From a virus, in the UHGV virus genome UHGV-0189011: a stretch of 12,541 nucleotides of DNA. One strand, given 5' to 3'. Each line of letters starts with the position of its first letter. Position 1 is the first letter of the stretch. The notes under the pieces were generated by a model. The model worked only from the letters and a program-made list of their open reading frames with translations, was not told the origin of the DNA and did no database searches. Below, piece by piece: positions 1 through 12,541 of this stretch. Both the position numbers and the translations under genes were made by a program.

Positions 1-40
1 CGCAGGCATTGTTATCAACCCGGCAACAGGGAGGAGCCCT

Positions 41-277
41 ATGCCCGTTATTGCCATTATCGCCATTGTTGCCATCGTCATCATTCTGAACAAAACCGGG
101 GTGTCCGACAGTCTCGCGGCCCTGACCCTTGCCACTGTTGCCGCACTGCTGACGGGAGGTGGCGCAGCCGGTGCTGCCAGTGTCGCGCTGACACCGTTCG
201 TCGGCGTGCCGGTGGGTATTTTCGTCGGCATTTATGTCTTTGCCAAAGTGGTACGTCTGATTTCAGGGAAAAAATAA
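41..277 (+). CDS. small inner-membrane protein (78 aa, two predicted TM helices)
   Basis: ATG at 41 preceded by GGGAGGAG (28-35); hydrophobic segments IAIIAIVAIVIIL and VGVPVGIFVGIYVFA separated by a Gly/Ala-rich linker; stop TAA 275-277 overlaps the next ATG (TAATG). Resembles YkfL/YpjK-type small membrane proteins (recalled). Confidence 0.6.
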   Translation: MPVIAIIAIVAIVIILNKTGVSDSLAALTLATVAALLTGGGAAGAASVALTPFVGVPVGIFVGIYVFAKVVRLISGKK

Positions 278-720
278 TGAAATGTAAAACACTACCTCTG
301 CTGGCGATGGTTGCCACCACTCTGTTTCTGAGCGCCTGCGATGACAGGAGTGATGACCTGAAAGCTATCAGTAAATTTAAGGACCTCACGCCTCCGCGCT
401 TCAGCGATGTGGTCAGTCGGCAGGATGATGTCAGCGAAGAATGGTCACAGGTTGGCTTTTCATCAGGTCTCACCCTGCAGGTCTTACGTACCCGTGAGTC
501 GCCCGATGGCTGCGAGGGCGGTAGTTACTACTACCTCGTGGATATGCAGGAAAAAACCATCCAGCCGCTGATGAATGCGCTGTGTATTGCCGATAACATC
601 AAACTGGAATACCAGGAGGTGACGGACCCGTATACCAAAGAAAAATACTTTGAGTACGCCCATGACGGCAAACTGATGGGGCAGCTACTGATACCCTCGA
701 ACCCTGACAATCAGGAATAA
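277..720 (+). CDS. yafY: lipoprotein (YafY/YfjS-like), 147 aa
   Basis: N-terminal signal peptide with lipobox LSAC followed by DD; ATG at 277 coupled to the upstream stop; stop TAA 718-720. Symbol is by recalled synteny with E. coli CP4-6 and is tentative. Confidence 0.6.
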   Translation: MKCKTLPLLAMVATTLFLSACDDRSDDLKAISKFKDLTPPRFSDVVSRQDDVSEEWSQVGFSSGLTLQVLRTRESPDGCEGGSYYYLVDMQEKTIQPLMNALCIADNIKLEYQEVTDPYTKEKYFEYAHDGKLMGQLLIPSNPDNQE

Positions 721-742
721 AACAACGACAAAGGAGACAAGA

Positions 743-1210
743 ATGACAATACTTTCACTAAGTCGGTTTATGCTGGCGGGTGTACTGCTCGCGAGCTTTA
801 ATGCCTCTGCTATCCCGGGGTTCTGGCAGCAGGGTTACGGTCAGGGCAATACGGAATACAGCGTGACCGAAGCCAGCGGAAAGACGTTTACCATCAACTG
901 CACAGGGAACCCGGACCAGAATGGTTTCTATCAGCATTCAGTCTTTCTTACCCTTGCCGATGACAAGATGGTCAGTTCGCACGATGACGACACTACTATC
1001 ACCGTAGTGATGGATCACCAGCAGTACATTATTCCGTCCAGCCTGGGCTGGCGTAACGGCGATAACGCCTGGTTTGACTTCATCAGCAATATCTCTGAGG
1101 CCGGGCAGTTCGACGTCTACGTCAATGACCACAAAGCAGGGACCTTCACTGCGGACCGGAAGAACACTGAGAAAGTTCTGTCCACTCTCGGAGACTGCAG
1201 CAACGACTGA
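743..1210 (+). CDS. secreted/periplasmic protein with cleavable signal peptide (YkfB/YfjT-like), 155 aa
   Basis: ATG at 743 with AAGGAG SD (731-736); N-terminal hydrophobic signal [23 protein letters not shown]; stop TGA 1208-1210. Confidence 0.6.
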
Positions 1211-1236
1211 TAGTAGTATCTTCCCCAGCAAATCCA

Positions 1237-1271
1237 CCCCGACAGCTAGCAGGCTGCCGGGGTTTTCTTTT
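1237..1271 (+). terminator. putative rho-independent terminator between the secreted-protein gene and the DUF905 gene
   Basis: GC-rich hairpin ccccgacag/ctgccgggg (8 of 9 bp paired, 8-nt loop) at 1237-1262, immediately followed by the T-tract ttttctttt (1263-1271). Confidence 0.45.
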
Positions 1272-1286
1272 ATCAGGAGCCCGAAA

Positions 1287-1526
1287 ATGACCCAATCCGT
1301 GTTGCTGCCACCGGGGCCTTTCACCCGGAGACAAGCGCAAGCGGTCACTACCACGTACAGCAATATCACACTCGAAGACGACCAGGGCAGTCACTTCCGT
1401 CTGGTGGTTCGTGATACTGAAGGCCGGATGGTCTGGCGGGCATGGAACTTTGAGCCGGATGCCGGTGAAGGTCTTAACCGCTATATCCGCACCTCAGGCA
1501 TCCGTACAGACACGGCCACCCGCTGA
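1287..1526 (+). CDS. ykfF: DUF905 family protein (YkfF-like), 79 aa
   Basis: ATG at 1287 with AGGAG SD (1275-1279); product [20 protein letters not shown]... matches the recalled YkfF/DUF905 family. The longer ORF from 1074 is rejected because it overlaps the upstream gene and terminator. Confidence 0.7.
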
Positions 1527-2822: not shown

Positions 2823-3502
<680 letters not shown>

Positions 3503-3567
3503 ACATTGCGTACAACCTTCCCGATTTACATTTCTGAACTTCCTCCCTTGTTTACCTATTGCGTAAT

Positions 3568-3604
3568 GCGCCTGCTACTACCCGGCAGGCGCGTTATCTT
3601 TTTA
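3568..3604 (+). terminator. putative rho-independent terminator downstream of the toxin gene
   Basis: Perfect 8-bp GC-rich inverted repeat gcgcctgc / gcaggcgc (3568-3575 and 3585-3592, 9-nt loop) followed by gttatcttttta. Confidence 0.5.
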
Positions 3605-3873
3605 CGGACAAACAATCATGCAACCAGAAGTTGAAGTATTAACCGATCATAATGAGCTAATTTGTTCGAGCTTTATTGAACACATTGCCAACACATTAAA
3701 TTTAGGAGTGGTGTACAACTAAACCTGCAGCCAAGGATGTATAGTGAGCGAAGCCCTATCAGGCCTTTTTGGTCAGTAGATAAGATTGATCTTCGTTGAT
3801 AGAATTTACTTACACCAGCTGTTACATTAAGATAATTTTTTGGTGGGAGAATGATAAGATCTTACGTAACAAT

Positions 3874-3929
3874 TTGATTTTAATGGTGCCGATAATAGGA
3901 GTCGAACCTACGACCTTCGCATTACGAAT
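3874..3929. repeat. attR-type direct repeat: copy of the 3' 46 nt of thrW (3884-3929) plus 10 bp of flank
   Basis: 3882-3929 is identical over 48 bp to 12453-12500; 3874-3929 matches 12445-12500 with one mismatch (offset 8571 bp). Identity stops exactly where the tRNA anticodon region begins (3930 c versus 12501 g). Confidence 0.9.
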
Positions 3930-4163
3930 CTGTAGCACCAATCATAACTATCTGTTTTAGCAAGCATTAACCGCATTCACTAAGCTATAGTTGATGGCAC
4001 AAACAGAAAGTTGATGCATGATGTTGTCATGCGTATGTCACAAATACGGCACAACAATCTTCAAATATGTAGACACACATCTACAGGAGAGCACAAAGCC
4101 TTGCAATACAGTGCAAAGCCTTGTGTGTCTCAGTTTTGTCCTGTGTGCCAGATATTGAATGGC

Positions 4164-4766
4164 CTACGCCTCCGGCAGTTCAGGCCAGATGACATCCGGC
4201 GCGGTGCTGGTATCTGTTACCGTCACCGCGTCAATGTAATCCAGCACGGCGTTAAGTCGGGTTGTTTCTGCCTGCGTCAGCTTCCGCCCGGCCTGTAATT
4301 TCAGTTGAATCAGACTAATGGAAGCCATTGCAGCATCAATCAGTGACTGGCGCTGTGCTTCTGCCGCGTCTACTGCGGCGCTATGCTGTGCCTCAGTATC
4401 GGTCACCCATTTCTCACCATCCCATTTATCGTATGGCGTTAATGGGGCGATAGTGGTTGTATTTTCAGGGTAATCACCCGGAGCGGTGATTTCTTTTGAT
4501 TCTCCTGTTTTGGTGCTATAGACCGTTTCACCGCGATGGTCTGGCACATATTCCCATGAGTTAAAATCTGCAGAACGGCAGATTGCATAACCAGCCTTAT
4601 GTGTGCCAGGGGCATCTAAACAGGAACATGCCGGAATGCCGATACCAACGGCAAGATATTCATTTGAAGTGGAAATATATTCCCGAGTTTCACCATCATA
4701 GCTATAGACGGTAATATTCCCCGCCTTCGTGGCAATAAGCTCGCTATTTAATACAGCGTTATCCAT
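4164..4766 (-). CDS. tail fiber assembly protein (Tfa; Caudovirales tail-assembly chaperone family), 200 aa
   Basis: Product has the Tfa family hallmarks (WEYVPDHRGETVYSTKTGE, EKWVTDTEAQ, VTDTSTAPDVIWPELPEA C-terminus), as in TfaE/TfaQ-type proteins; ATG at 4766 overlaps the fiber stop (TAATG); stop TAG 4164-4166. Confidence 0.8.
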   Translation of the reverse strand: MDNAVLNSELIATKAGNITVYSYDGETREYISTSNEYLAVGIGIPACSCLDAPGTHKAGYAICRSADFNSWEYVPDHRGETVYSTKTGESKEITAPGDYPENTTTIAPLTPYDKWDGEKWVTDTEAQHSAAVDAAEAQRQSLIDAAMASISLIQLKLQAGRKLTQAETTRLNAVLDYIDAVTVTDTSTAPDVIWPELPEA

Positions 4767-5500
4767 TATACAGCCCTCACGATAAAGTTAAATGCAATAT
4801 TTCGCGCACGTGTTTCCGTTGATGTTCTGGCAACACGTGATGCATCAAAATAATAATTCGCCTGTTTATATGTACCACCTGTCGCAATTGATGCGAGATT
4901 TGGTGTCAATGTTGAAGAGGTAAATGCGCCGACAGTATTATTATTTGGCCCCGTGGTCATATCCAAAAAGCTACCTGTAATATTTTGCAGCGTATCGCTC
5001 TGAGCACTCAATAACGCTCGCCCACTGTCCACTCCACGCCCATCATCCCAGCCACGAATAAACTCACCACGTAAATCAGGCAATTTATTTGTCGGGTAAG
5101 CCTTTGCCAGCTCCGGGTATTCTTCAGCAGAAAAAGCTGCACCATTGCATTTCAACCAGCCTGTCGGTGGTGTAGCTGAAGGCCACGGAACAGGCACACC
5201 AACAGGTAATGCAGAGCCTTCTCCCAAACCAAGGTTTGTGGTAATCGCTGTCGCCAGCTTTGCCACCAGTCCATCAACGTCACCATCATCGAGCGCGTCC
5301 AGTTCGGCGTTCGCGATAAACTGCCCCAGTACAGCCGCCATCGTCGACGGTTGGCGCAGCGCTTTACTGACCTGTGCGCTGGATGCTTTACCCGAGGAGA
5401 ATCCTTTCTTCAGTGCGGTTAGCGTCTCCCATTCCTCCTGCGAGGTAACATTTGCATTAGCATCTGTCGCAAACGCTTTAAAATCATTAGTTCCAGCCAT
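4766..5500 (-). CDS. short tail fiber protein with C-terminal phage tail-collar domain, 244 aa
   Basis: C-terminal motif WLKCNGAAFSAEEYPELAKAYP...LPDLRGEFIRGW is typical of the tail-collar domain; start chosen at ATG 5500 (GGGGGAG SD, TAATG overlap with the upstream stop) rather than the track start at 5518; immediately followed by the Tfa gene. Confidence 0.7.
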   Translation of the reverse strand: MAGTNDFKAFATDANANVTSQEEWETLTALKKGFSSGKASSAQVSKALRQPSTMAAVLGQFIANAELDALDDGDVDGLVAKLATAITTNLGLGEGSALPVGVPVPWPSATPPTGWLKCNGAAFSAEEYPELAKAYPTNKLPDLRGEFIRGWDDGRGVDSGRALLSAQSDTLQNITGSFLDMTTGPNNNTVGAFTSSTLTPNLASIATGGTYKQANYYFDASRVARTSTETRARNIAFNFIVRAV

Positions 5501-6180
5501 TAAAGTAATCTCCCCCATGCGCCGTCATCAAAACCGGCGATGTATTCGTTATCCATGTCAAATCCAAAGAATTTTGTTCCTTCGGACGGTGTTTCGACCG
5601 AGGGTGTTTCAACGCCGCCAGCCCATACACCAGCAGCTTTAACGGTGAGATAACCCTGTTTGATAGCGGCTATCAGTTCGAGTGACACATCAGAAATATC
5701 AGTCTCGGGAAAAACCCAGACCGATATCGTCATGTCCTGGTTATCGACGATCTGCATCTTCAGTCCAGAGCCTGCGGTAGCAGCGTCAAGGATGGGAGGC
5801 AGAGAGTCGTTCCGACCATCCCAGTTGTTGATAGCGATTTTCGCTTTCAGAATGATGCGGTACGTCTCATCACTCAGCGTCGTATAGCCAGAATCAGGAT
5901 CATATGGCCCTTGCCAGATGCCCTGGTCATATCCGAGCCCGTCAGTGTCCCAGCTGAAATAAACGCCGCTAATTGGCTGGCTGACTATACGACTACGCCC
6001 AATCCACAGGCCGAGGATATCGAGTTGCACGCCAACCGCCGTATCGATATCGAAGGCTGTTACAAGCCCTGACATAGTGCTGGACACATCAATCAGCGGG
6101 CGGGTGCTCAGATCTATATGGTCAAAAAAGAGTGGCTTGGTAGCGTGGTAGTTAGTGATCAGTTCGGTGTATTTGCTCAT
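5500..6180 (-). CDS. putative tail/baseplate structural protein, 226 aa
   Basis: Intact ORF coupled by ATGA overlap to the upstream gene; lies between a putative baseplate-like protein and the tail fiber; contains a [13 protein letters not shown] motif. Family not confidently recognised. Confidence 0.45.
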
Positions 6181-7277
6181 GAGGTCACCGTGATAGTGAT
6201 ATTCGCGGTGCTACAGGACGCCGAAGCATCATAGGCAATATCAATGTTTGATGCCGATACGCTGCCAGACGACTTACCGATCAGCAGGTCGGTAATATCG
6301 TAATAGCGGGCATTCCCGCCGCTCACAACGCCGAGGTTTGCCGGGGAATAAATACGGCTCAGCAGAACGTCGTCGCCAATTGTTAGGCCATTTATATAAT
6401 CGGCAACAGCCTGTTTAATCTGCTCGCCGATTTGAGAGGTATAGCCGGTAAAAACTTTCAGGGTAATGGCTACGAAAATTGGCACATCGGTAGAGCGCGA
6501 AAAACTGATGACGTGAGGATTACCATAAGTATCCGGCACTGTGACAGAAGTTGTCCCGTAGGTTGCCGTTCCCTGTCCTTTATTCCCCCTGATGGCCTGG
6601 GCAATTTCGGTAACATCCCCACCATCGACGATGGCGGAAATCGAGTGTGGCGGCAGCCCATTGCTGTCGGTTGCCCCCGTGTCGTTCTCATACAGTTTGT
6701 GACGTGTCACGCCAGCAATGTTAGCGATTGCACCGTCGACGCCTTCAAACGGTGTGACCGATGGTAGCGCGACGCTTTGCCCCTGCCGAATGCGCAGCTC
6801 TGCGTCGGTTTCAGCTGGTGAACCGACAGTAGCCGCAGCCGGGTTGGTTACCGACACCCAGCCGCGAGTCGGTGTGTTAATGGTGGTAATAGTCCCGGCC
6901 ATCGCCGCAACCGAACCGCTATTCGCACATGTGGCCGTAACCAGTACAGTACCGTCAACGCCGATCGCTACACTTGCGGGAAAATTCCAGATAATGCCGT
7001 TTTTATCCCGTGCGGAGCCATTCGTGATAGTTGTTCCCGCCGTACCGGTTAACAGAAGGTCAGCAGTAGAGTTTGTCGCTACTTTTCGCGTGATCCCGTT
7101 AATTTTCACATTGCTGCTATCTTCAACGCCAGAATACAGGCGAACACGCTCGCTTGTCGGGATCACGTTAGATGAGCCCAGAATCAGCAGCGCACCGAAG
7201 TTACGCCCGGTTGCCGCCGTCGCCGCCATAATCACATCAACGTTAACAACGTTGGAAACAGGTAAGCCCTGTGCCAT
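6177..7277 (-). CDS. putative tail/baseplate structural protein (possibly baseplate J-like), 366 aa
   Basis: ATG at 7277 with GGAGA SD; Thr/Gly/Ala/Val-rich beta-type composition; the [11 protein letters not shown] motif is reminiscent of baseplate J / gp6-like proteins (recalled, uncertain); positioned two genes upstream of the fiber. Confidence 0.45.
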
Positions 7278-7280
7278 AGA

Positions 7281-7844
7281 TTAATCTCCAAAAAATGATA
7301 CTGGTACATCCACCAGCAATTTGATGCCGTATTCGCGCACAACCTTACGGCGCAGTCGCACCGTCATGTCGTAACGGCGAACCCATTGCTGGTTGATAAG
7401 TTCGGGGAAAGGAGTCAGACCGGTATAGTCGCCAAGGGACAAACCAAGAGCGTTAAGCTCAGCATTATTTTGCGGGACAGATATGCCATCACGAAAACGG
7501 GACGCATAAGACATACCAGCCGGGCCATAGAACGACGCCATGCACTCGAACGTTTCATGCCTCCAGAGCTGAGCGCCCTCTTCAGTCTGCCAGGTGAATG
7601 CAGGGTTGTTATCAATGAGCAACCCGGTAACGCCAAACGCGCACCAGTTCGTTTCAACGGGTGGCAGTGGCGGCTGGTCTTTCTGCCAGCGCGGGCGAAC
7701 CATCCCAGCAGGCAAGCCGGAAACGTTGCGCATCCACTGACTTAACAGCCTGTCTAGCGCTTCGTCATAATCCGGATCGCCGCTGGTGGGTGTCAGCCAG
7801 CCGCGCTCTGTGCTGGTGTTATTGCTCAACGGGAGTTCCCCCAT
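7281..7844 (-). CDS. phage structural protein of unknown function (start uncertain)
   Basis: ORF is open from a TTG at 7907; the first ATG is at 7844, with no convincing SD; stop TAA 7281-7283 lies 4 nt upstream of the next start. Confidence 0.4.
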   Translation of the reverse strand: MGELPLSNNTSTERGWLTPTSGDPDYDEALDRLLSQWMRNVSGLPAGMVRPRWQKDQPPLPPVETNWCAFGVTGLLIDNNPAFTWQTEEGAQLWRHETFECMASFYGPAGMSYASRFRDGISVPQNNAELNALGLSLGDYTGLTPFPELINQQWVRRYDMTVRLRRKVVREYGIKLLVDVPVSFFGD

Positions 7845-8208
7845 CAAACGGCAGTAATTCACAATGCGCCTGGACAAAGCCAGCACCGTAAGCCGTGTAC
7901 GGGTCAACGAATGTCACACGATAATCACGGTTCTGGTACGTCACGATATCGGCGTCACGGCCAGTCTGCCCCTGCGTCAGCCGCTCAGTTGTCACGATGA
8001 GAATCGCGCCACTGATAACTTGCCCGGACTGCATACGGCGGTTCTCCAGGGAGCGGTCAACGGTAACAACTCCGGCAAACTGCGTTTTTACTTCGCTGTC
8101 ACTGCCGATCCCGTCATCGTCCACCGTTTGCACGCGACGCGTTACCCACAGGTTGAAGTCGCAAAAATCGGGGTCAAAAAGTACGTCCGTCACATCAAGA
8201 TTCGGCAT
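7819..8208 (-). CDS. putative head-tail joining / head-closure type protein, 129 aa
   Basis: ATG at 8208 with GAGGG SD; 14-nt overlap with the upstream gene; size and position after the connector genes. Family not confidently recognised. Confidence 0.4.
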   Translation of the reverse strand: MPNLDVTDVLFDPDFCDFNLWVTRRVQTVDDDGIGSDSEVKTQFAGVVTVDRSLENRRMQSGQVISGAILIVTTERLTQGQTGRDADIVTYQNRDYRVTFVDPYTAYGAGFVQAHCELLPFDGGTPVEQ

Positions 8209-8782
8209 CTTTATCCCTCACAACGTGGGTAATGGCTCTGCGGTACTGTCCGGTATCAATCAACGGCCTTACATTCTCATTGCTTATCAATTGACCAGAA
8301 TCTGGGTTGATAGCATTAAGCTTTCCATCTGCTGATCTGCGTGCTAACTCAGCTTTAGCCCCTTTGCGCCCTCGACGTGCTCGGGCCTCTACGGTGCTAT
8401 CAGCAAGCGGTGTAAAGCCGGTAATGGTCATGTAACGCCTGACGCCATTCGCGGCCAGCGTTCCGGCGCGGTTAAGCGCTCTTTCCGCACCCGCCGCATT
8501 TCCATCAAGCGCAGCCTGCGCCGCTGCTTTGAGCTGCGGCACCGTCTGTTCCTCTACGGATTTAACGCCGGGGATCAGGTGCGGGCGTGGGGGTATGTTT
8601 TGCGCTGGTGAGCCGTATTCGTTGACGTAACCGATCCCGGCATTACCAAACGGAACATCCTCACGCTCGCTGTCTTCTTCCGGGATGCCCACCAGCACAT
8701 CCTTTTTGGTTAGCGACCGGAGCGCATCCAGAATGGCCTGAGCGTTATCAACCCTCGTTGTTACACCACTTTTGAAACTCAT
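8195..8782 (-). CDS. putative head-tail connector component (HK97 gp10-like?), 195 aa
   Basis: ATG at 8782 overlaps the upstream stop (ATGA); [16 protein letters not shown] resembles the E-F/Y-G ... RPF signature recalled for the HK97 gp10 family (tentative). Confidence 0.45.
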
Positions 8783-9198
8783 AGCTGGCGACCGCCCGCA
8801 CCGAACATCGTGATCAGCTGATAAAATTCAGCGCCATATCGGGTGTTATTCCAGAAGCCTGCGTCAGGGTTTAGCGTCGCGCTGGTGTCATAGCTGACGC
8901 TTACCTTGTCAACGGACTTGGAGGACTGAACACCATTGGTTGAGCCACCCGGGCCGCCGACGAGCATTGCCCGGCTATCTGCCGCCCAGAGCGTCATGTA
9001 GTGAGCCACGAACAACTCGACAAAGTACGGAAACAACTCTTTGCCGGTGACGTTTTCGCTCAGCAGCACATCAGCCAGATTCAGACGAAACTGGATTTGT
9101 GCTTCGGGATATTTGGCAGGGTCAGCAAACTGTGGAAAGTCGCGCCGAAAATCACTTACTGTTGGCAGGCTTTGATTCTTTGGCATCTTTTGCCCCAT
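8779..9198 (-). CDS. putative head-tail adaptor protein, 139 aa
   Basis: Intact ORF overlapping both neighbours; position immediately after the capsid genes; alternative ATG start at 9186. Confidence 0.4.
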
Positions 9199-9520
9199 TA
9201 CCGCCAGTCTGGGCGGCAGAAATCTGCGCTTGCAGGCTGTCGTTCTGCTCTTGCATCTTGAGCAGCGCTTCTTTCAGATCGGCAATCAGCTGATCTTTAT
9301 CGACAATCTGCGCTTGCAGGCTGTCGATAATGGGTTGCAGATCATCGGTGTCGCTAATCACGCTTTCGGAAAGCTCAGAGTGCGCCTGGGTGAACCAGTG
9401 CGACGCGACCTCTTCCGGTACGTTATGCCGTCCCCGGCCAAACTCCTGTTTTGACTGATCGCCCAGCGTCAGCGTAAACGGGGTGTGAACATGGATGGTA
9501 ACCAGCTTTTCTTTCGCCAT
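9152..9520 (-). CDS. small phage structural protein with coiled-coil C-terminal half, 122 aa
   Basis: ATG at 9520 with AAGGA SD; heptad-like region [35 protein letters not shown]; first gene after the capsid-gene hairpin. Confidence 0.45.
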
Positions 9521-9535
9521 TTTCAGTTTCCTTCT

Positions 9536-9551
9536 GGCCCCTTTCGGGGCC
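9536..9551 (-). promoter_or_regulatory. stable GC stem-loop with GNRA (GAAA) tetraloop immediately downstream of the putative major capsid gene
   Basis: Minus-strand RNA reads GGCCCC-GAAA-GGGGCC, 11 nt after the capsid stop (9562-9564); no U-tract follows, so more likely an mRNA-stabilising or attenuating hairpin than a full terminator. Confidence 0.4.
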
Positions 9552-9561
9552 GTTCTGGTTA

Positions 9562-10503
9562 TCAGATACCGTCCACGTAGGACAGGGTTTCTTTGTACAC
9601 TGGCTCAACCGCACCGAGCTTGCCGTAGTAGGTCGCAATCTGGTACAGACCGCGATACTGGATAGGAACGCTCTGCAACGGCACCAGCGGATAGCGCACG
9701 TATTTCTTGTCGTTGGTGTAGGCGACCATACGGTCTTTACCGCCAACGCCGCGCCCTTTCAGCCATTTGACCGCTTTGATTTCCAGCGGAACGCCGTTCT
9801 GGTGGAAAGCGATAGTGTTCACGGCCAGATAGGTCAGTAGTGACTGGTTACCCGCTTCGGAAACCTTACGGCTCGCCAGCAGTGAATACTGCTCTGGCGG
9901 AATGCGCAGATCAGAAGGCACAACGGAATAACCGGATGCTGCCCAGGCATTCGACAGAATACTGTTCACGCTATCGAGGATTTCGTCGTTGGTGGAGTTC
10001 GCCCAGGTCTTCGGCGCATTGTTCAGCGTCACACCCACAAGGTTTGCCAGACCTTTCAGGCCGAGCGCATCATCGCCGATGTAAACCTGCTCGTCGTTGT
10101 CCATCTGCCATTTGAGCTGCATCCCGTCGTACTTCTGGGTATCAATCGGGCGGCCTACCTGCTGAGCTGCTGCCAGCTCTACAACGGTCCAGCCCAGTTC
10201 CATGCCCCAGAGGTTCAACGGATTGCCGTCTTTGCCGATATCAACGTTCACGCCAGCAATAGCGGTGGAGTCTTTACCTACCCAGTTTTTACCATTCGGA
10301 TTTGCACCAGTACCCGCAGCGGCGAAGCTGGTATTCGTCCAGCTGGAAATGTCATCTGCGATAGACACGTCTTCACGCAGTTGAATATCTCGGGTCCAGG
10401 TGTACCCCACCAGAGGCAGGTTCAGCGTCTGGTCGAGTCGCTCCAGCTCCCCGATGAGAAAGGCACCGGAGCTATCTACGGTTGCCTGATCAAAAGTAAT
10501 CAT
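9562..10503 (-). CDS. putative major capsid protein, 313 aa
   Basis: ATG at 10503 with AAGGA SD; third gene of the structural operon after the acidic scaffold-like and small capsid-associated genes; followed by a strong stem-loop; size and composition fit a small major capsid protein. Fold not verified. Confidence 0.5.
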   Translation of the reverse strand: MITFDQATVDSSGAFLIGELERLDQTLNLPLVGYTWTRDIQLREDVSIADDISSWTNTSFAAAGTGANPNGKNWVGKDSTAIAGVNVDIGKDGNPLNLWGMELGWTVVELAAAQQVGRPIDTQKYDGMQLKWQMDNDEQVYIGDDALGLKGLANLVGVTLNNAPKTWANSTNDEILDSVNSILSNAWAASGYSVVPSDLRIPPEQYSLLASRKVSEAGNQSLLTYLAVNTIAFHQNGVPLEIKAVKWLKGRGVGGKDRMVAYTNDKKYVRYPLVPLQSVPIQYRGLYQIATYYGKLGAVEPVYKETLSYVDGI

Positions 10504-10514
10504 TTGTCTGTTCC

Positions 10515-11018
10515 TTAAATCTTCCAGGAGATTTCTGCATTACCGTTAGCGTCACCGGCACCTGTGAATTCGGCGTTGGTCAGCGCCACGTTTTTGCCAC
10601 TGACGGACGTGGACATGAAGCCGCCCAGCGGCACTTTGATGGATTCATCAGTGGAGACGACAACGTATACCGGGTCGCCTTTTTTGATGGTGCTGGCATC
10701 AAAATCAGAACCGAGATTAACGGTCATGTAGCCACGCTTCATGGCGTCACCCGGGAAGTTCTTATCCGTCCCCACCTGGCGAACCATGTCTGGCTGCGAT
10801 GTGGTCGGATACGGACGAACGTAGATCCCCTTCACCTTGTCGGCGGTGTCACCGTCCGCCAGCGGCACGAAAAAGCCGTCAGCGTCATATTTGCCAGCCA
10901 GACCATAGGCAGCGAAGGCGTTAGCGGATTTAAGGATCACCGTCTCGACGGTTAAATCCTGCGGGCGAGAGATAGCCCCGGCAATGCCAACAGGCATCCG
11001 GTTCAAATATGCAGTCAT
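10515..11018 (-). CDS. putative capsid-associated (decoration/cement-type) structural protein, 167 aa
   Basis: ATG at 11018 with AAGGA SD; located between the scaffold-like and capsid genes; beta-rich, Gly/Asp-rich sequence. Confidence 0.45.
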   Translation of the reverse strand: MTAYLNRMPVGIAGAISRPQDLTVETVILKSANAFAAYGLAGKYDADGFFVPLADGDTADKVKGIYVRPYPTTSQPDMVRQVGTDKNFPGDAMKRGYMTVNLGSDFDASTIKKGDPVYVVVSTDESIKVPLGGFMSTSVSGKNVALTNAEFTGAGDANGNAEISWKI

Positions 11019-11022
11019 TGGA

Positions 11023-11511
11023 TTATCCTTTGCGGTTAGACCAGAAGTCGGCGTTTTGTTTGTTCAGGGAAGCGATGCTGGTCATGCCCATATTTGGACG
11101 TTGTGCATCGCCCGTGGTGCTGCGGGTGTTTCGCCCTTTGGCAATCTCAGACACGGCGTTAAACGCCATATCGACCGATTGCTTGGGCAATTTGCGGATA
11201 TCTGCATCACCGACAACCTGGCGAACCAGTGTTTTGTCAGCGGCGGACAGCACATCACGTTTGAACGCGGTCGGTTTCACCTTACGGCTCAGATCGATAC
11301 CCGGAACGATAACTTCGGCACGATAAGCAGCGTCACCGGTAATCGTGGTTTCCTCTTCGTCGTCCTCACCGTCGCCGGTAGGGTCTTTGTTATCTTTGCC
11401 GTCAGGCTTATCGTCGTTATCGCCCGTTGCAGTACCTTCCAGCTTAGCCAGCAGGGCTTTGAGCAAGGTTTTGATATCGTCCTCGCCGTCGCCGGTTGGC
11501 TCTCCGCCCAT
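11023..11511 (-). CDS. acidic scaffolding-like protein with duplicated PTGDGEDD motif (possibly 5'-truncated at the deletion junction)
   Basis: The ORF is open up to 11733, but the part above about 11607 is antisense to the integrase remnant, so the first plausible ATG is 11511 (weak SD); very acidic, low-complexity N-terminal half and alpha-helical C-terminal half; stop TAA 11023-11025. Confidence 0.4.
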   Translation of the reverse strand: MGGEPTGDGEDDIKTLLKALLAKLEGTATGDNDDKPDGKDNKDPTGDGEDDEEETTITGDAAYRAEVIVPGIDLSRKVKPTAFKRDVLSAADKTLVRQVVGDADIRKLPKQSVDMAFNAVSEIAKGRNTRSTTGDAQRPNMGMTSIASLNKQNADFWSNRKG

Positions 11512-11606
11512 TTCCGGCTTTTTGTCCGGCAATGGTTGTTGCGGTGAAAGATTAATGTTGAGGTTAACGCCGCTCGGCAGATCCCCTTCATCGCCCGTTA
11601 GACGGG

Positions 11607-12440
11607 ATGGAAAACCGCCGCCATCGCCTGAACTGGGAGATGAGCCGGGACAGGTGTTTGCGGCTTGGCAAGCCAGTGCCGGAGTATAAACCAAAGCTGG
11701 CAAGCAAAGGAACGAAGACGCGGCATCTGGCAATACTTCGCGCTATTCTCAATATGGCTGTTGAATGGGGATGGCTTGACAGGACGCCCAAAATATCAAC
11801 ACCACGCGTTAAGAATGGACGAATCAGATGGCTTACAGAGGAGGAATCGAAGCGCCTGTTTGCAGAAATTGCTCCTCATTTCTTCCCTGTGGTCATGTTT
11901 GCAATCACGACAGGCCTTCGCCGCTCCAACGTTACAGACCTTGAGTGGTCACAGGTCGATCTGGATAAGAAAATGGCATGGATGCACCCTGATGAAACAA
12001 AAGCTGGCAATGCGATCGGAGTTCCTCTTAACGAAACCGCATGCCAGATATTAAGAAAACAGCAGGGGCTCCATAAGAGATGGGTATTTGTCCACACCAA
12101 ACCTGCCTACCGAAGCGACGGAACAAAAACAGCTGCGGTAAGGAAGATGAGAACCGATAGCAACAAGGCATGGAAGGGAGCGTTAAAGCGGGCAGGCATT
12201 AGCAACTTCCGCTTCCATGACCTGAGGCATACCTGGGCAAGTTGGCTGGTTCAGTCCGGAGTCTCTCTTCTTGCACTTAAAGAGATGGGAGGATGGGAAA
12301 CTCTCGAAATGGTTCAAAGATACGCTCACCTTTCAGCCGGGCATCTCACCGAGCACGCGAGCAAAATCGATGCGATTATAAGTCGCAATGGCACAAATAC
12401 GGCACAAGAGGAGAACGTAGTTTACTTAAATGCGAGGTAA
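11607..12440 (+). CDS. int: tyrosine integrase, P22 Int-like, C-terminal catalytic part only (N-terminal arm-binding region absent; probable pseudogene remnant)
   Basis: Product has the tyrosine-recombinase catalytic signature (TGLRRSN ... HDLRHTWASWLVQSG ... YAHL); in-frame stop TAA at 11565-11567 leaves only 13 codons upstream of the first ATG; phage integrases of this type are about 390 aa, versus 277 aa here; ends 14 nt from the thrW 3' end. Confidence 0.8.
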   Translation: MENRRHRLNWEMSRDRCLRLGKPVPEYKPKLASKGTKTRHLAILRAILNMAVEWGWLDRTPKISTPRVKNGRIRWLTEEESKRLFAEIAPHFFPVVMFAITTGLRRSNVTDLEWSQVDLDKKMAWMHPDETKAGNAIGVPLNETACQILRKQQGLHKRWVFVHTKPAYRSDGTKTAAVRKMRTDSNKAWKGALKRAGISNFRFHDLRHTWASWLVQSGVSLLALKEMGGWETLEMVQRYAHLSAGHLTEHASKIDAIISRNGTNTAQEENVVYLNAR

Positions 12441-12444
12441 CTTA

Positions 12445-12500
12445 TTGATTTAAATGGTGCCGATAATAGGAGTCGAACCTACGACCTTCGCATTACGAAT
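12445..12500. repeat. attL-type direct repeat (3' part of intact thrW plus 10-bp flank), partner of 3874-3929
   Basis: Exact 48-bp identity between 12453-12500 and 3882-3929. Confidence 0.9.
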
Positions 12501-12530
12501 GCGCTGCTCTACCAACTGAGCTATATCGGC
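12455..12530 (-). tRNA. thrW: tRNA-Thr (anticodon CGU)
   Basis: The reverse complement reads GCCGATATAGCTCAGTTGGTAGAGCAGCGCATTCGTAATGCGAAGGTCGTAGGTTCGACTCCTATTATCGGCACCA: 7-bp acceptor stem GCCGATA/TATCGGC, anticodon loop with CGT, T-loop GGTTCGACTCC, encoded CCA. Confidence 0.95.
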
Positions 12531-12541
12531 CCTGAAAGGAC

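What the first reader, a model, noticed from the sequence alone, without database searches (positions are those of the whole stretch)
41..1271. Envelope-targeted three-gene unit: small membrane protein coupled to a lipoprotein, plus a secreted protein
The 78-aa two-helix membrane protein, with a GGGAAGAAS linker resembling a glycine-zipper, is translationally coupled (TAATG) to a lipoprotein and followed by a signal-peptide protein, then a terminator. Small hydrophobic proteins of this kind are often membrane-active, so this could be an envelope-modifying or exclusion unit of the island.
Basis: inference. Interest (0 to 1): 0.35.

Follow-up and report, generated by a model that had tools for sequence, protein, structure and literature searches.

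The report
Known ypjK–yfjS–ykfB envelope gene cassette
The three genes are real and are the already-annotated but functionally uncharacterised E. coli island genes ypjK, yfjS/yafY and ykfB/yfjT, which encode a small inner-membrane protein, an inner-membrane lipoprotein and a periplasmic protein; what they do is still unknown, and a protective or exclusion role at the cell envelope is only a plausible guess.

Summary
Window 41-277, 277-720 and 743-1210 encode a 78-aa hydrophobic protein, a 147-aa lipoprotein and a 155-aa signal-peptide protein. The first two genes overlap in TAATG, and a conserved intrinsic terminator (1236-1271) closes the unit.

These are not new genes. They are ypjK, yfjS/yafY and ykfB/yfjT of CP4-6/CP4-57-type islands: 99.9% identical to E. 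coli 504239, 97% to K-12 CP4-6, and present in about 10% of complete E. coli genomes. All three are under purifying selection (dN/dS 0.09-0.15).

New context from 69 related loci:
- The trio lies directly downstream of the island's DeoR-HTH/WYL regulator YfjR.
- In other Enterobacterales this slot always holds exported proteins, but from different families.
- Only the YkfB/YfjT-family periplasmic protein is constant.
- A 30%-identical YkfB relative fills the superinfection-exclusion (sim) locus of many P1-like phage-plasmids.

Neither the YfjS nor the YkfB model matches a solved structure, and no PADLOC defence model matches any of the three proteins. The FliA promoter inside the lipoprotein gene, proven in K-12, is present here but is lineage-specific.

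Function remains inferred. A protective or exclusion role at the envelope is my leading guess (about 0.3). The feature is already known and of modest interest.

The parts
1..40 (+). Short leader between the stop codon of the upstream WYL/DeoR regulator gene yfjR (just outside the window) and ypjK. It contains the Shine-Dalgarno sequence GGGAGGAG at 29-36. No promoter-like site was found, so transcription most likely reads through from yfjR.
   Evidence: In L001, yfjR ends at the base before window position 1.
41..277 (+). ypjK: a 78-aa small inner-membrane protein with three hydrophobic stretches, a GVPVGIFVG glycine zipper and a basic C-terminus.
   Evidence: The ORF is conserved in 21 of 21 class-A loci, with dN/dS 0.089. 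The identical protein is indexed in 1261 blocks of the assembly collection.
277..720 (+). yfjS/yafY-family lipoprotein, 147 aa. It has the lipobox LSAC (Cys21) and Asp at +2, the inner-membrane retention signal. Its start codon overlaps the ypjK stop codon (TAATG).
   Evidence: Pfam PF20494 at 2.3e-66. C21, C79 and C103 are invariant. dN/dS is 0.128. K-12 YafY is described as an inner-membrane lipoprotein whose overproduction activates Cpx (PMC6538781).
570..597 (+). Sigma-28 (FliA) promoter inside the lipoprotein gene, with its -10 element GCCGATAA at 589-596. It is identical to the promoter shown to drive ykfB in K-12.
   Evidence: The motif is given in PMC4183435 and its position in the window is. 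It occurs only in the CP4-6 lineage; the other loci carry GCCGACAA.
743..1210 (+). ykfB/yfjT-family periplasmic protein, 155 aa. It has a signal peptide cleaved after A23, the invariant pair Cys53/Cys152 and the conserved motif [10 protein letters not shown]. The Shine-Dalgarno sequence AAGGAG lies at 731-736.
   Evidence: Close homologues carry precomputed Pfam PF27224 (YfjT). dN/dS is 0.153. The family has 181 clusters at 50% identity.
1236..1271 (+). Intrinsic terminator that closes the cassette: an 11-pair G+C-rich hairpin followed by TTTTCTTTT.
   Evidence: fold. The hairpin is conserved with compensatory changes across 11 loci. K-12 RNA data show a ykfB transcript but no ykfF transcript (PMC5389530).

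Best explanation
Shown or strongly supported:
- The locus is the ypjK-yfjS(yafY)-ykfB(yfjT) cassette of a CP4-6/CP4-57-type integrative island.
- It forms the distal part of the operon of the island's DeoR-HTH/WYL regulator YfjR and ends at its own terminator.
- It encodes three envelope proteins: YpjK, a small polytopic inner-membrane protein; YfjS, a lipoprotein held in the inner membrane by Asp+2 and facing the periplasm; and YkfB, a soluble periplasmic protein predicted to be disulfide-bonded.
- YpjK and YfjS are made in coupled fashion.
- In this lineage YkfB can also be transcribed on its own from a FliA promoter.

Inferred:
- YpjK and YfjS probably work together at the inner membrane.
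- The three proteins act at the interface of inner membrane and periplasm as a protective module for the cell that carries the island.
- The most likely mechanism is to block entry of foreign DNA (phage superinfection or entry exclusion, as with P1 Sim), or otherwise to shield the envelope.
- Expression would be released when YfjR is relieved.
- YkfB/YfjT is the constant component, and the membrane and lipoprotein partners are exchangeable.
For: Identity and context:
- 99.9% nucleotide identity to annotated ypjK/yfjS/ykfB genes, 97% to K-12 CP4-6 and 88% to CP4-57; present in 536 of 5426 complete E. coli genomes.

Localisation signals:
- Lipobox with Asp+2, an AXA signal peptide, hydrophobic segments and invariant cysteine pairs.
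- YafY was shown experimentally to be an inner-membrane lipoprotein (PMC6538781).

Real genes forming one unit:
- dN/dS is 0.09-0.15.
- The stop/start overlap is conserved.
- The terminator is conserved with covariation.

Link to the regulator:
- YfjR carries HTH_DeoR and WYL domains.
- It lies immediately upstream in all class-A loci and most class-B loci.
- gSELEX found that its single target is its own operon (PMC8249747).

Arms-race-like variability:
- The slot between YfjR and YkfB always holds lipoproteins, signal-peptide proteins or membrane proteins, drawn from several unrelated families.
- One variant is an analogous trio of a 99-aa lipoprotein, a 103-aa membrane protein and YkfB (L056, L078).

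Link to exclusion:
- A YkfB homologue (hhalign probability 98%) occupies the position of simB/simC, between icd and pmgC, in a P1-like phage and in P1-like phage-plasmids that make up most of the 90 low-identity plasmid hits.
- SimC is found in 141 plasmid records.

Small envelope-related phenotype:
- A ykfB knock-out is at least 2-fold more resistant to the membrane-active peptide Smp43 (PMC8125054).
Against: - No sequence similarity to SimA, SimB or SimC or to any PADLOC defence model.
- No Foldseek match to any solved structure, including known exclusion, immunity or inhibitor proteins.
- The sim-locus argument rests on position only, and concerns a relative that is just 30% identical.
- From general knowledge, E. 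coli K-12 carries two copies of the cassette and is still the standard sensitive host for P1 and many other phages. Any exclusion must therefore be narrow, or silent while YfjR represses the operon.
- No conjugation genes are annotated near the cassette.
- YpjK and YfjS can each occur without the other (L075; L042/L057), so they are not an obligate pair.
- In Aeromonas, YkfB homologues are lone chromosomal genes outside any island.
Confidence: 0.3

Rival explanations
1. Host-physiology modulator ('moron'). The cassette tunes envelope stress signalling, motility or biofilm behaviour of the host rather than protecting it. For example, the inner-membrane lipoprotein could act on the Cpx sensor, while YkfB is expressed with the late flagellar regulon.
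For: - Among the 90 lipoproteins screened, overproduced YafY was one of only two that activate Cpx/degP (PMC6538781 and PMC6593411).
- A functional FliA promoter drives ykfB in K-12 and is identical in the window.
- The YfjR operon is listed under 'biofilm formation'.
Against: - Cpx activation was seen only on overproduction, and deleting yafY had no effect in lipoprotein-trafficking stress.
- Deleting ykfB did not change motility.
- The FliA -10 element exists only in the CP4-6 lineage, because of a single synonymous base. It cannot explain conservation of the family.
Confidence: 0.22
2. Orphan immunity genes. The exported proteins neutralise toxins that act in the periplasm or membrane, such as bacteriocins, T6SS effectors or CDI toxins delivered by competitors. 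The small membrane protein would act like immunity proteins against pore-forming toxins.
For: - The slot holds a variable array of small exported proteins from unrelated families on a mobile element.
- YpjK has the size and hydrophobicity typical of membrane immunity proteins (the comparison itself is from general knowledge).
Against: - No toxin or effector gene lies nearby.
- No sequence or fold similarity to known immunity proteins.
- The cassette members are highly conserved across genera rather than hypervariable.
Confidence: 0.13
3. Membrane-toxin module. YpjK is a holin-like or type-I-toxin-like small membrane protein that damages the membrane, and the coupled lipoprotein restrains it. 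The function would be addiction or abortive infection.
For: - YpjK is small, has 2-3 hydrophobic segments, a glycine zipper and a charged C-terminus.
- It is tightly coupled to the next gene.
- The island also carries a CbtA/CbeA toxin-antitoxin pair.
Against: - YpjK occurs without YfjS in Pectobacterium (L075), and YfjS occurs without YpjK (L042, L057).
- No toxicity is reported for ypjK in the papers found.
- There is no endolysin or spanin partner.
- Its dN/dS of 0.09 and 82-96% identity across genera fit a structural membrane partner as well as a toxin.
Confidence: 0.08
4. Non-functional remnant of a decayed element, with ORFs that persist by chance.
For: - The cassette sits in 'cryptic prophage' type islands.
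- In K-12 CP4-6 the upstream regulator is truncated.
- Frameshifted copies exist in databases.
Against: - All three genes are under purifying selection.
- Ribosome-binding sites, the gene overlap and the terminator are conserved across more than 10 genera.
Confidence: 0.03

Closest known systems
E. coli K-12 CP4-6 ypjK-like/yafY/ykfB and CP4-57 ypjK/yfjS/yfjT (y-ome genes)
   Same: Same genes, order, overlap and flanking genes: GTPase, DUF932 and YfjR upstream; DUF905, antirestriction, RadC, DUF987 and the CbeA/CbtA-type pair downstream. Nucleotide identity is 97% to CP4-6 and 88% to CP4-57. The FliA promoter is identical to the one mapped in K-12.
   Different: This copy keeps the full ypjK start and, judging from the 99.9%-identical locus L001, an intact yfjR. 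K-12 CP4-6 has a deletion that truncates both. Beyond the toxin-antitoxin module the window continues into prophage structural genes.
Phage P1 sim (superimmunity) operon simA-simB-simC
   Same: A small operon of exported proteins on a mobile element. All three Sim proteins have signal peptides. A YkfB-family gene replaces simB/simC at the same site in P1-like phage-plasmids.
   Different: No detectable homology between the trio and SimA, SimB or SimC. Sim has no lipoprotein and no polytopic membrane component. An exclusion phenotype has not been shown for any YkfB-family protein.
Lipoprotein or inner-membrane exclusion proteins of phages and plasmids (Cor, Llp, TraT/TraS, TrbK, Eex)
   Same: Small envelope proteins, either lipoproteins or small inner-membrane proteins, encoded by mobile elements. 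This comparison is from general knowledge.
   Different: No Pfam, PHROG or structural match to any named exclusion protein. YfjS is predicted to stay in the inner membrane, unlike the outer-membrane lipoproteins Cor, Llp and TraT. No transfer genes are annotated nearby.
WYL-regulator-controlled defence operons (BrxR/CapW type)
   Same: An HTH+WYL regulator is encoded immediately upstream and on the same strand as the genes it presumably controls. gSELEX found its own operon to be its only target.
   Different: The downstream genes are envelope proteins with no match to known defence systems. Neither the inducing signal nor repression by YfjR has been tested.

Membership tests
YfjS/YafY lipoprotein family (Pfam PF20494) | Match to the YfjS_YafY domain model above the gathering score | tested here: met
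   221.4 bits against a cut-off of 27, covering residues 35-147 and the full profile.
YfjS/YafY lipoprotein family (Pfam PF20494) | Lipobox with an invariant Cys, and Asp at +2 (inner-membrane retention) | tested here: met
   LSAC with Cys21 invariant and D22 nearly invariant. Inner-membrane location of K-12 YafY comes from the literature.
YfjS/YafY lipoprotein family (Pfam PF20494) | Cpx/degP induction on overproduction (reported for YafY) | not testable with these tools
   Known only from PMC6538781 and PMC6593411.
YfjT/YkfB family (Pfam PF27224) | Full-length homology to YkfB/YfjT proteins | tested here: met
   99% identity to proteins named YkfB that carry precomputed PF27224. The model is absent from the local Pfam copy, so it was not scored directly.
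YfjT/YkfB family (Pfam PF27224) | Cleavable signal peptide and a conserved cysteine pair (periplasmic protein) | tested here: met
   A21-S22-A23 site, with C53 and C152 invariant in 25 sequences. Localisation itself has not been tested.
YpjK small membrane protein | Orthology to E. coli YpjK, with the same position and overlap with yfjS | tested here: met
   RefSeq annotation at the matching loci. 96% amino-acid identity to CP4-57 YpjK. The overlap is conserved.
P1 Sim superinfection-exclusion system | Homology to SimA, SimB or SimC | tested here: not met
   hhalign probability 0.2-0.4%. phmmer with Sim proteins found nothing significant (best E 0.036) among the ORFs of the island loci.
P1 Sim superinfection-exclusion system | Location in the sim locus of a P1-type phage | tested here: inconclusive
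   True for a 30%-identical YkfB relative, but not for the window's own genes, which lie in a CP4-type island.
P1 Sim superinfection-exclusion system | Blocks superinfecting phage after adsorption | not testable with these tools
   Needs infection assays.
Known anti-phage defence systems (PADLOC models) | Match to any defence-system protein model | tested here: not met
   No match for proteins 1 and 3. Protein 2 gave only a spurious 13-bit WYL hit.
Holin or small membrane toxin with a dedicated partner | Obligate pairing of the small membrane protein with its partner gene | tested here: not met
   YpjK occurs without YfjS in L075. YfjS-like lipoproteins occur without YpjK in L042 and L057.
Holin or small membrane toxin with a dedicated partner | Toxicity or membrane permeabilisation on expression | not testable with these tools
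   No report was found in the searched literature.
Conjugative entry-exclusion systems (TraS/TraT, Eex, TrbK) | Encoded within or next to mating-pair-formation or transfer genes | tested here: not met
   No transfer genes are annotated in 19-29 kb around the cassette in three E. coli loci. The one plasmid-borne copy examined sits in an inserted island, not in the tra region.

The most novel reading that the evidence does not exclude
Cassettes centred on YkfB/YfjT and controlled by a WYL regulator could be an unrecognised family of envelope-level exclusion or protection systems. Each would consist of a constant periplasmic protein plus exchangeable small membrane proteins and lipoproteins. The family would be shared between CP4-type integrative islands of Enterobacterales and the sim locus of P1-like phage-plasmids. 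ypjK-yfjS-ykfB would be its E. coli K-12 representative.
Probability: 0.2. Interest if true: 0.6.

Novelty: already known. Interest (0 to 1): 0.27.

Why it matters
The genes belong to the uncharacterised 'y-ome' of E. coli K-12 and sit in about 10% of complete E. coli genomes, as well as in islands of many other Enterobacterales. One such island lies on an NDM-1 Klebsiella plasmid.

Assigning them a role would clarify what CP4-type islands do for their hosts. If that role is a new kind of envelope barrier to phage or DNA entry, it would also add a class of defence that current defence-finders miss.

The context found here gives concrete experiments:
- linkage to the WYL regulator YfjR;
- a variable cassette of exported proteins with a constant YkfB member;
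- a YkfB-type allele at the P1 sim locus.

On present evidence the locus is an ordinary, already annotated feature of unknown function.

Tried and rejected
1. Structure route. AlphaFold2 models of YkfB (pLDDT 68) and YfjS (pLDDT 79) were searched against the PDB. Nothing was significant (best E 0.5 and 0.13). In BFVD, YfjS matched only uncharacterised proteins, the one named being from an Erwinia jumbo phage, at TM about 0.46-0.50.

2. Remote homology. A YkfB profile was run against 1.84 billion representatives. It found 181 clusters, almost all stand-alone proteins of about 150 aa. Ten longer members were scanned with Pfam and gave only DUF2939.

3. Homology of YkfB or YfjS to P1 SimC or SimB, and of YkfB to YfjS. 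All rejected.

4. Whether the secreted protein that replaces YpjK/YfjS in Klebsiella- and Enterobacter-type loci is a diverged YfjS. The shared C-x-G-G/I-W/Y motif looked suggestive, but hhalign gave only 16.5% probability over 25 columns, which is inconclusive.

5. FliA control as a family-wide clue. Rejected, because the -10 element is confined to one lineage.

6. A weak NCBIfam hit of YpjK to the VraH peptide-resistance family (26 bits against a cut-off of 40, one transmembrane segment). Treated as compositional.

7. Whether two cassette copies in one genome always carry different YkfB alleles, as exclusion groups would. Copies are usually 52-81% identical, but near-identical pairs are rare between genomes as well (2.3%), so the test is uninformative.

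8. Diverged YpjK in other loci. An HMM search of all ORFs of at least 30 aa found none outside class-A loci and Pectobacterium.

9. Literature. No functional study of ypjK, yfjS or yfjT was found.
Full report
**Observation**

- 41-277 encodes 78 aa. GGGAGGAG lies 4 nt upstream of the ATG.
- 277-720 encodes 147 aa. Its ATG overlaps the preceding TAA, giving TAATG.
- 743-1210 encodes 155 aa. AAGGAG lies 6 nt upstream of the ATG.

The first protein is extremely hydrophobic (GRAVY 1.56). It has three hydrophobic stretches, at about residues 1-17, 25-39 and 48/53-68, a small-residue loop GGGAAGAAS (39-47), a true glycine-zipper spacing GVPVGIFVG (55-63) and a basic C-terminus. 'Two-helix' is therefore probably an undercount.

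The second protein has the lipobox LSAC, with Cys21 followed by Asp-Asp. The third has a signal peptide ending A-S-A at residue 23.

A G+C-rich hairpin at 1236-1263, followed by TTTTCTTTT, is part of the minimum-free-energy fold. The simple scanner missed it because of one internal mismatch.

**Identity**

Megablast of window 1-1400 found 536 of 5426 complete E. coli genomes. The best match is 99.9% identical, K-12 CP4-6 is 97.3% identical and K-12 CP4-57 is 87.8% identical. In all of them the genes are annotated ypjK, yfjS or yafY ('YfjS/YafY family lipoprotein') and ykfB or yfjT.

- Pfam PF20494 (YfjS_YafY) hits protein 2 at 221 bits.
- Close homologues of protein 3 carry PF27224 (YfjT).
- Protein 1 matches no model above its cut-off in the local Pfam or NCBIfam copies.

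The flanking genes are those of CP4-type islands. Upstream lie a GTPase, DUF932 and the regulator yfjR. Downstream lie DUF905 (window 1287-1526), an antirestriction protein, a RadC/JAB protein, DUF987 and a CbeA/CbtA-type toxin-antitoxin pair. This is therefore an already annotated, functionally uncharacterised gene set, listed in the 2024 'y-ome' survey.

**Are they real genes forming one unit?**

A scan of one genome per species recovered 69 loci that encode a YkfB relative. In about 30 'class A' loci the order is always GTPase, DUF932, YfjR, YpjK, YfjS, YkfB. These loci come from Escherichia, Citrobacter, Kluyvera, Serratia, Siccibacter, Buttiauxella, Cedecea, Mixta, Erwinia and others.

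- The 78-aa ORF is intact in all 21 loci examined, starting with ATG or GTG at the same codon.
- The stop/start overlap with yfjS is kept as TAATG, or TGATG in one locus.
- Nei-Gojobori dN/dS is 0.089 for YpjK, 0.128 for YfjS and 0.153 for YkfB.
- YpjK is the best conserved (82-96% identity to the window) and YkfB the least (61-78%).
- Median dS rises from 0.26 to 0.78 along the cassette, which suggests recombination between yfjS and ykfB.
- The terminator is retained after ykfB in 11 loci, with both-sided compensatory changes in 3 of 11 pairs. Unrelated but equivalent hairpins follow the gene in class-B loci.
- In K-12, RNA data show ykfB transcripts but no ykfF transcript, consistent with termination at this point.

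Only 40 nt separate the yfjR stop codon from ypjK, and no promoter-like site lies there. YfjR contains HTH_DeoR and WYL domains above their thresholds, and gSELEX reported its own operon as its single target. Taken together, the trio is best read as the distal part of the yfjR operon. This last step is an inference.

**What is variable and what is constant**

In about 30 'class B' loci YpjK is absent (HMM search). These loci come from Klebsiella, Enterobacter, Citrobacter, Hafnia, Yersinia, Providencia, Edaphovirga and others, and their YkfB is 41-55% identical to the window's.

The space between the WYL regulator and YkfB is nevertheless always filled with exported proteins:
- a secreted protein of 150-175 aa;
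- a secreted protein of 190-215 aa;
- a membrane protein with a GYF_2 domain;
- a 209-aa lipoprotein;
- in L056, L060, L065 and the plasmid-borne island L078, a 99-aa lipoprotein plus a 103-aa membrane protein plus YkfB. This is an analogous trio built from other families.

YfjS-like lipoproteins occur without YpjK in L042 and L057. In Pectobacterium the order is regulator, 189-aa secreted protein, YfjT, YpjK. In Aeromonas and related genera YkfB homologues lack the island's marker genes nearby; in the one locus read, Aeromonas sobria L073, the gene sits among ordinary chromosomal genes.

So the 'three-gene unit' is one configuration of a variable envelope cassette whose constant member is the YkfB/YfjT periplasmic protein.

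**Functional clues**

1. The literature describes K-12 YafY as an inner-membrane lipoprotein. In a screen of 90 lipoproteins it was one of only two whose overproduction activates Cpx. Deleting it had no effect under lipoprotein-trafficking stress.

2. A FliA promoter inside yafY drives ykfB in K-12. The identical 28-mer lies at window 570-597. Its -10 element, GCCGATAA, exists only in the CP4-6 lineage. The other loci, including CP4-57, have GCCGACAA through a synonymous change. Deleting ykfB did not affect motility. The promoter is real here, but it is a lineage-specific add-on.

3. A ykfB knock-out was at least 2-fold more resistant to the scorpion peptide Smp43, and ykfB transcript levels fell on treatment with polymyxin B.

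4. The only phage homologue found by tblastn is gp34 of a P1-like phage (30% identity; hhalign probability 98%). It lies with a gene whose N-terminus matches SimA, between icd and pmgC. In P1 that position holds the superimmunity genes simA, simB and simC.
   - The same arrangement is seen in plasmid pE2865-1.
   - Ninety plasmid records carry low-identity YkfB-like hits, most of them in plasmids of P1-like size (about 92-99 kb), against 141 records with SimC.
   - The YkfB-type gene therefore looks like a common alternative allele of an exclusion locus.
   - This evidence is positional only. YkfB and YfjS show no similarity to Sim proteins.

5. PHROG families exist for proteins 2 and 3, but they have no assigned function. 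PADLOC gives nothing.

6. The AlphaFold2 models are mostly beta (pLDDT 68 and 79) and match no solved structure. In BFVD they match only uncharacterised proteins, the one named being from an Erwinia jumbo phage. A profile search of 1.84 billion representatives found 181 YkfB clusters, with no informative domain fusions in the ten longer members scanned.

**Interpretation**

What is shown:
- the identity of the genes;
- that they are real coding genes;
- their export and anchoring signals;
- the coupling of the first two genes;
- the terminator;
- the FliA promoter;
- the conserved position behind a WYL regulator.

What is inferred is the function.

I rank a protective role at the interface of inner membrane and periplasm first, at about 0.3. 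Superinfection or entry exclusion is the most specific version. The reasons are the variable array of exported proteins, the WYL regulator (a regulator type often attached to defence operons, from general knowledge) and the sim-locus allele.

The rivals are:
- a host-physiology modulator acting through Cpx, motility or biofilm (0.22);
- orphan immunity to envelope-acting toxins (0.13);
- a YpjK membrane-toxin module (0.08). This is weakened because YpjK and YfjS each occur without the other;
- a decayed remnant (0.03). This is contradicted by purifying selection.

The main argument against exclusion comes from general knowledge. K-12 carries two copies of the cassette and remains sensitive to P1 and to the standard laboratory phages. 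Any effect must therefore be narrow, or repressed under laboratory conditions.

**Verdict**

The feature is already known and annotated, but its function is not. Interest is modest. The useful output is a sharper and testable framing: a YfjR-linked envelope cassette centred on YkfB, with a positional link to the P1 sim locus.

Noticed in passing
window 570-597 (inside the lipoprotein gene): This is the experimentally mapped K-12 FliA (sigma-28) promoter for ykfB, present here base for base. Across related islands its -10 element GCCGATAA is created by a single synonymous Asp codon (GAT rather than GAC), and it is confined to the CP4-6 lineage.
   Followed up: yes
window 3400-12541: Beyond the CbtA-type toxin gene the window continues into prophage structural genes on the minus strand (DUF2184, DUF2213, neck terminator, cement protein). 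The 99.9%-identical strain L001 instead has a SMEK-domain gene and an IS66 element there. The island therefore abuts a different element in this genome.
   Followed up: partly
window 41-1210 compared with L003, L017, L024 and L032: Divergence rises steeply along the cassette. Median dS is 0.26 for ypjK, 0.44 for yfjS and 0.78 for ykfB. Against CP4-57, YpjK is 96% identical but YkfB only 74%. This suggests mosaic recombination with two old ykfB/yfjT allele types.
   Followed up: partly
L004 4305-5480; L076 2805-3980; L005 6787-8071: P1-like phage-plasmids carry two alternative sim-locus alleles. One is simA-simB-simC (SimC in 141 PLSDB records). The other pairs a 215-aa gene that has a SimA-like N-terminus with a YkfB-family gene; most of the 90 low-identity plasmid hits are of this kind.
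   Followed up: partly
L033 6447-6932, L046 6509-6982, L044 6411-6938: The secreted protein of 150-175 aa that fills the slot in Klebsiella- and Enterobacter-type islands shares a 'S-x-P-x-x-C-x-G-G/I-W/Y' strand motif with YfjS. However, hhalign gives only 16.5% probability. It may be a very distant, non-lipidated relative.
   Followed up: partly
L078 (Klebsiella pneumoniae plasmid p1-7011.62-NDM1, 53402-67851): A complete CP4-type island module is inserted in a conjugative IncFIB/IncHI1B NDM-1 plasmid. It comprises AlpA, a WYL regulator, small exported proteins, a YkfB-like gene, DUF905, DUF932, an antirestriction gene, RadC and a toxin-antitoxin pair. An annotated 'glycine zipper family protein' lies just upstream of the regulator.
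   Followed up: no
window 81-473 (-) and 938-1369 (-): Long antisense ORFs (130 and 143 aa) overlap the three genes. They have no support as genes. The K-12 literature does, however, report antisense transcripts opposite ykfB (about 200 nt) and ykfF (about 500 nt).
   Followed up: no
window 176-244 (YpjK residues 46-68): There is a sub-threshold NCBIfam hit to the VraH family, small membrane peptide-resistance proteins of Staphylococcus (26 bits against a cut-off of 40). It is probably just compositional similarity of a glycine-rich transmembrane helix.
   Followed up: no
L073 5611-7456 (Aeromonas sobria): In Aeromonadaceae and Oceanisphaera the YkfB-family gene lacks the island's marker genes nearby. 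In this Aeromonas sobria locus it is a lone chromosomal gene, near a methyl-accepting chemotaxis protein gene and a 321-aa ORF with a hydrophobic, signal-peptide-like N-terminus. The family therefore predates its capture by CP4-type islands, or exists independently of it.
   Followed up: partly
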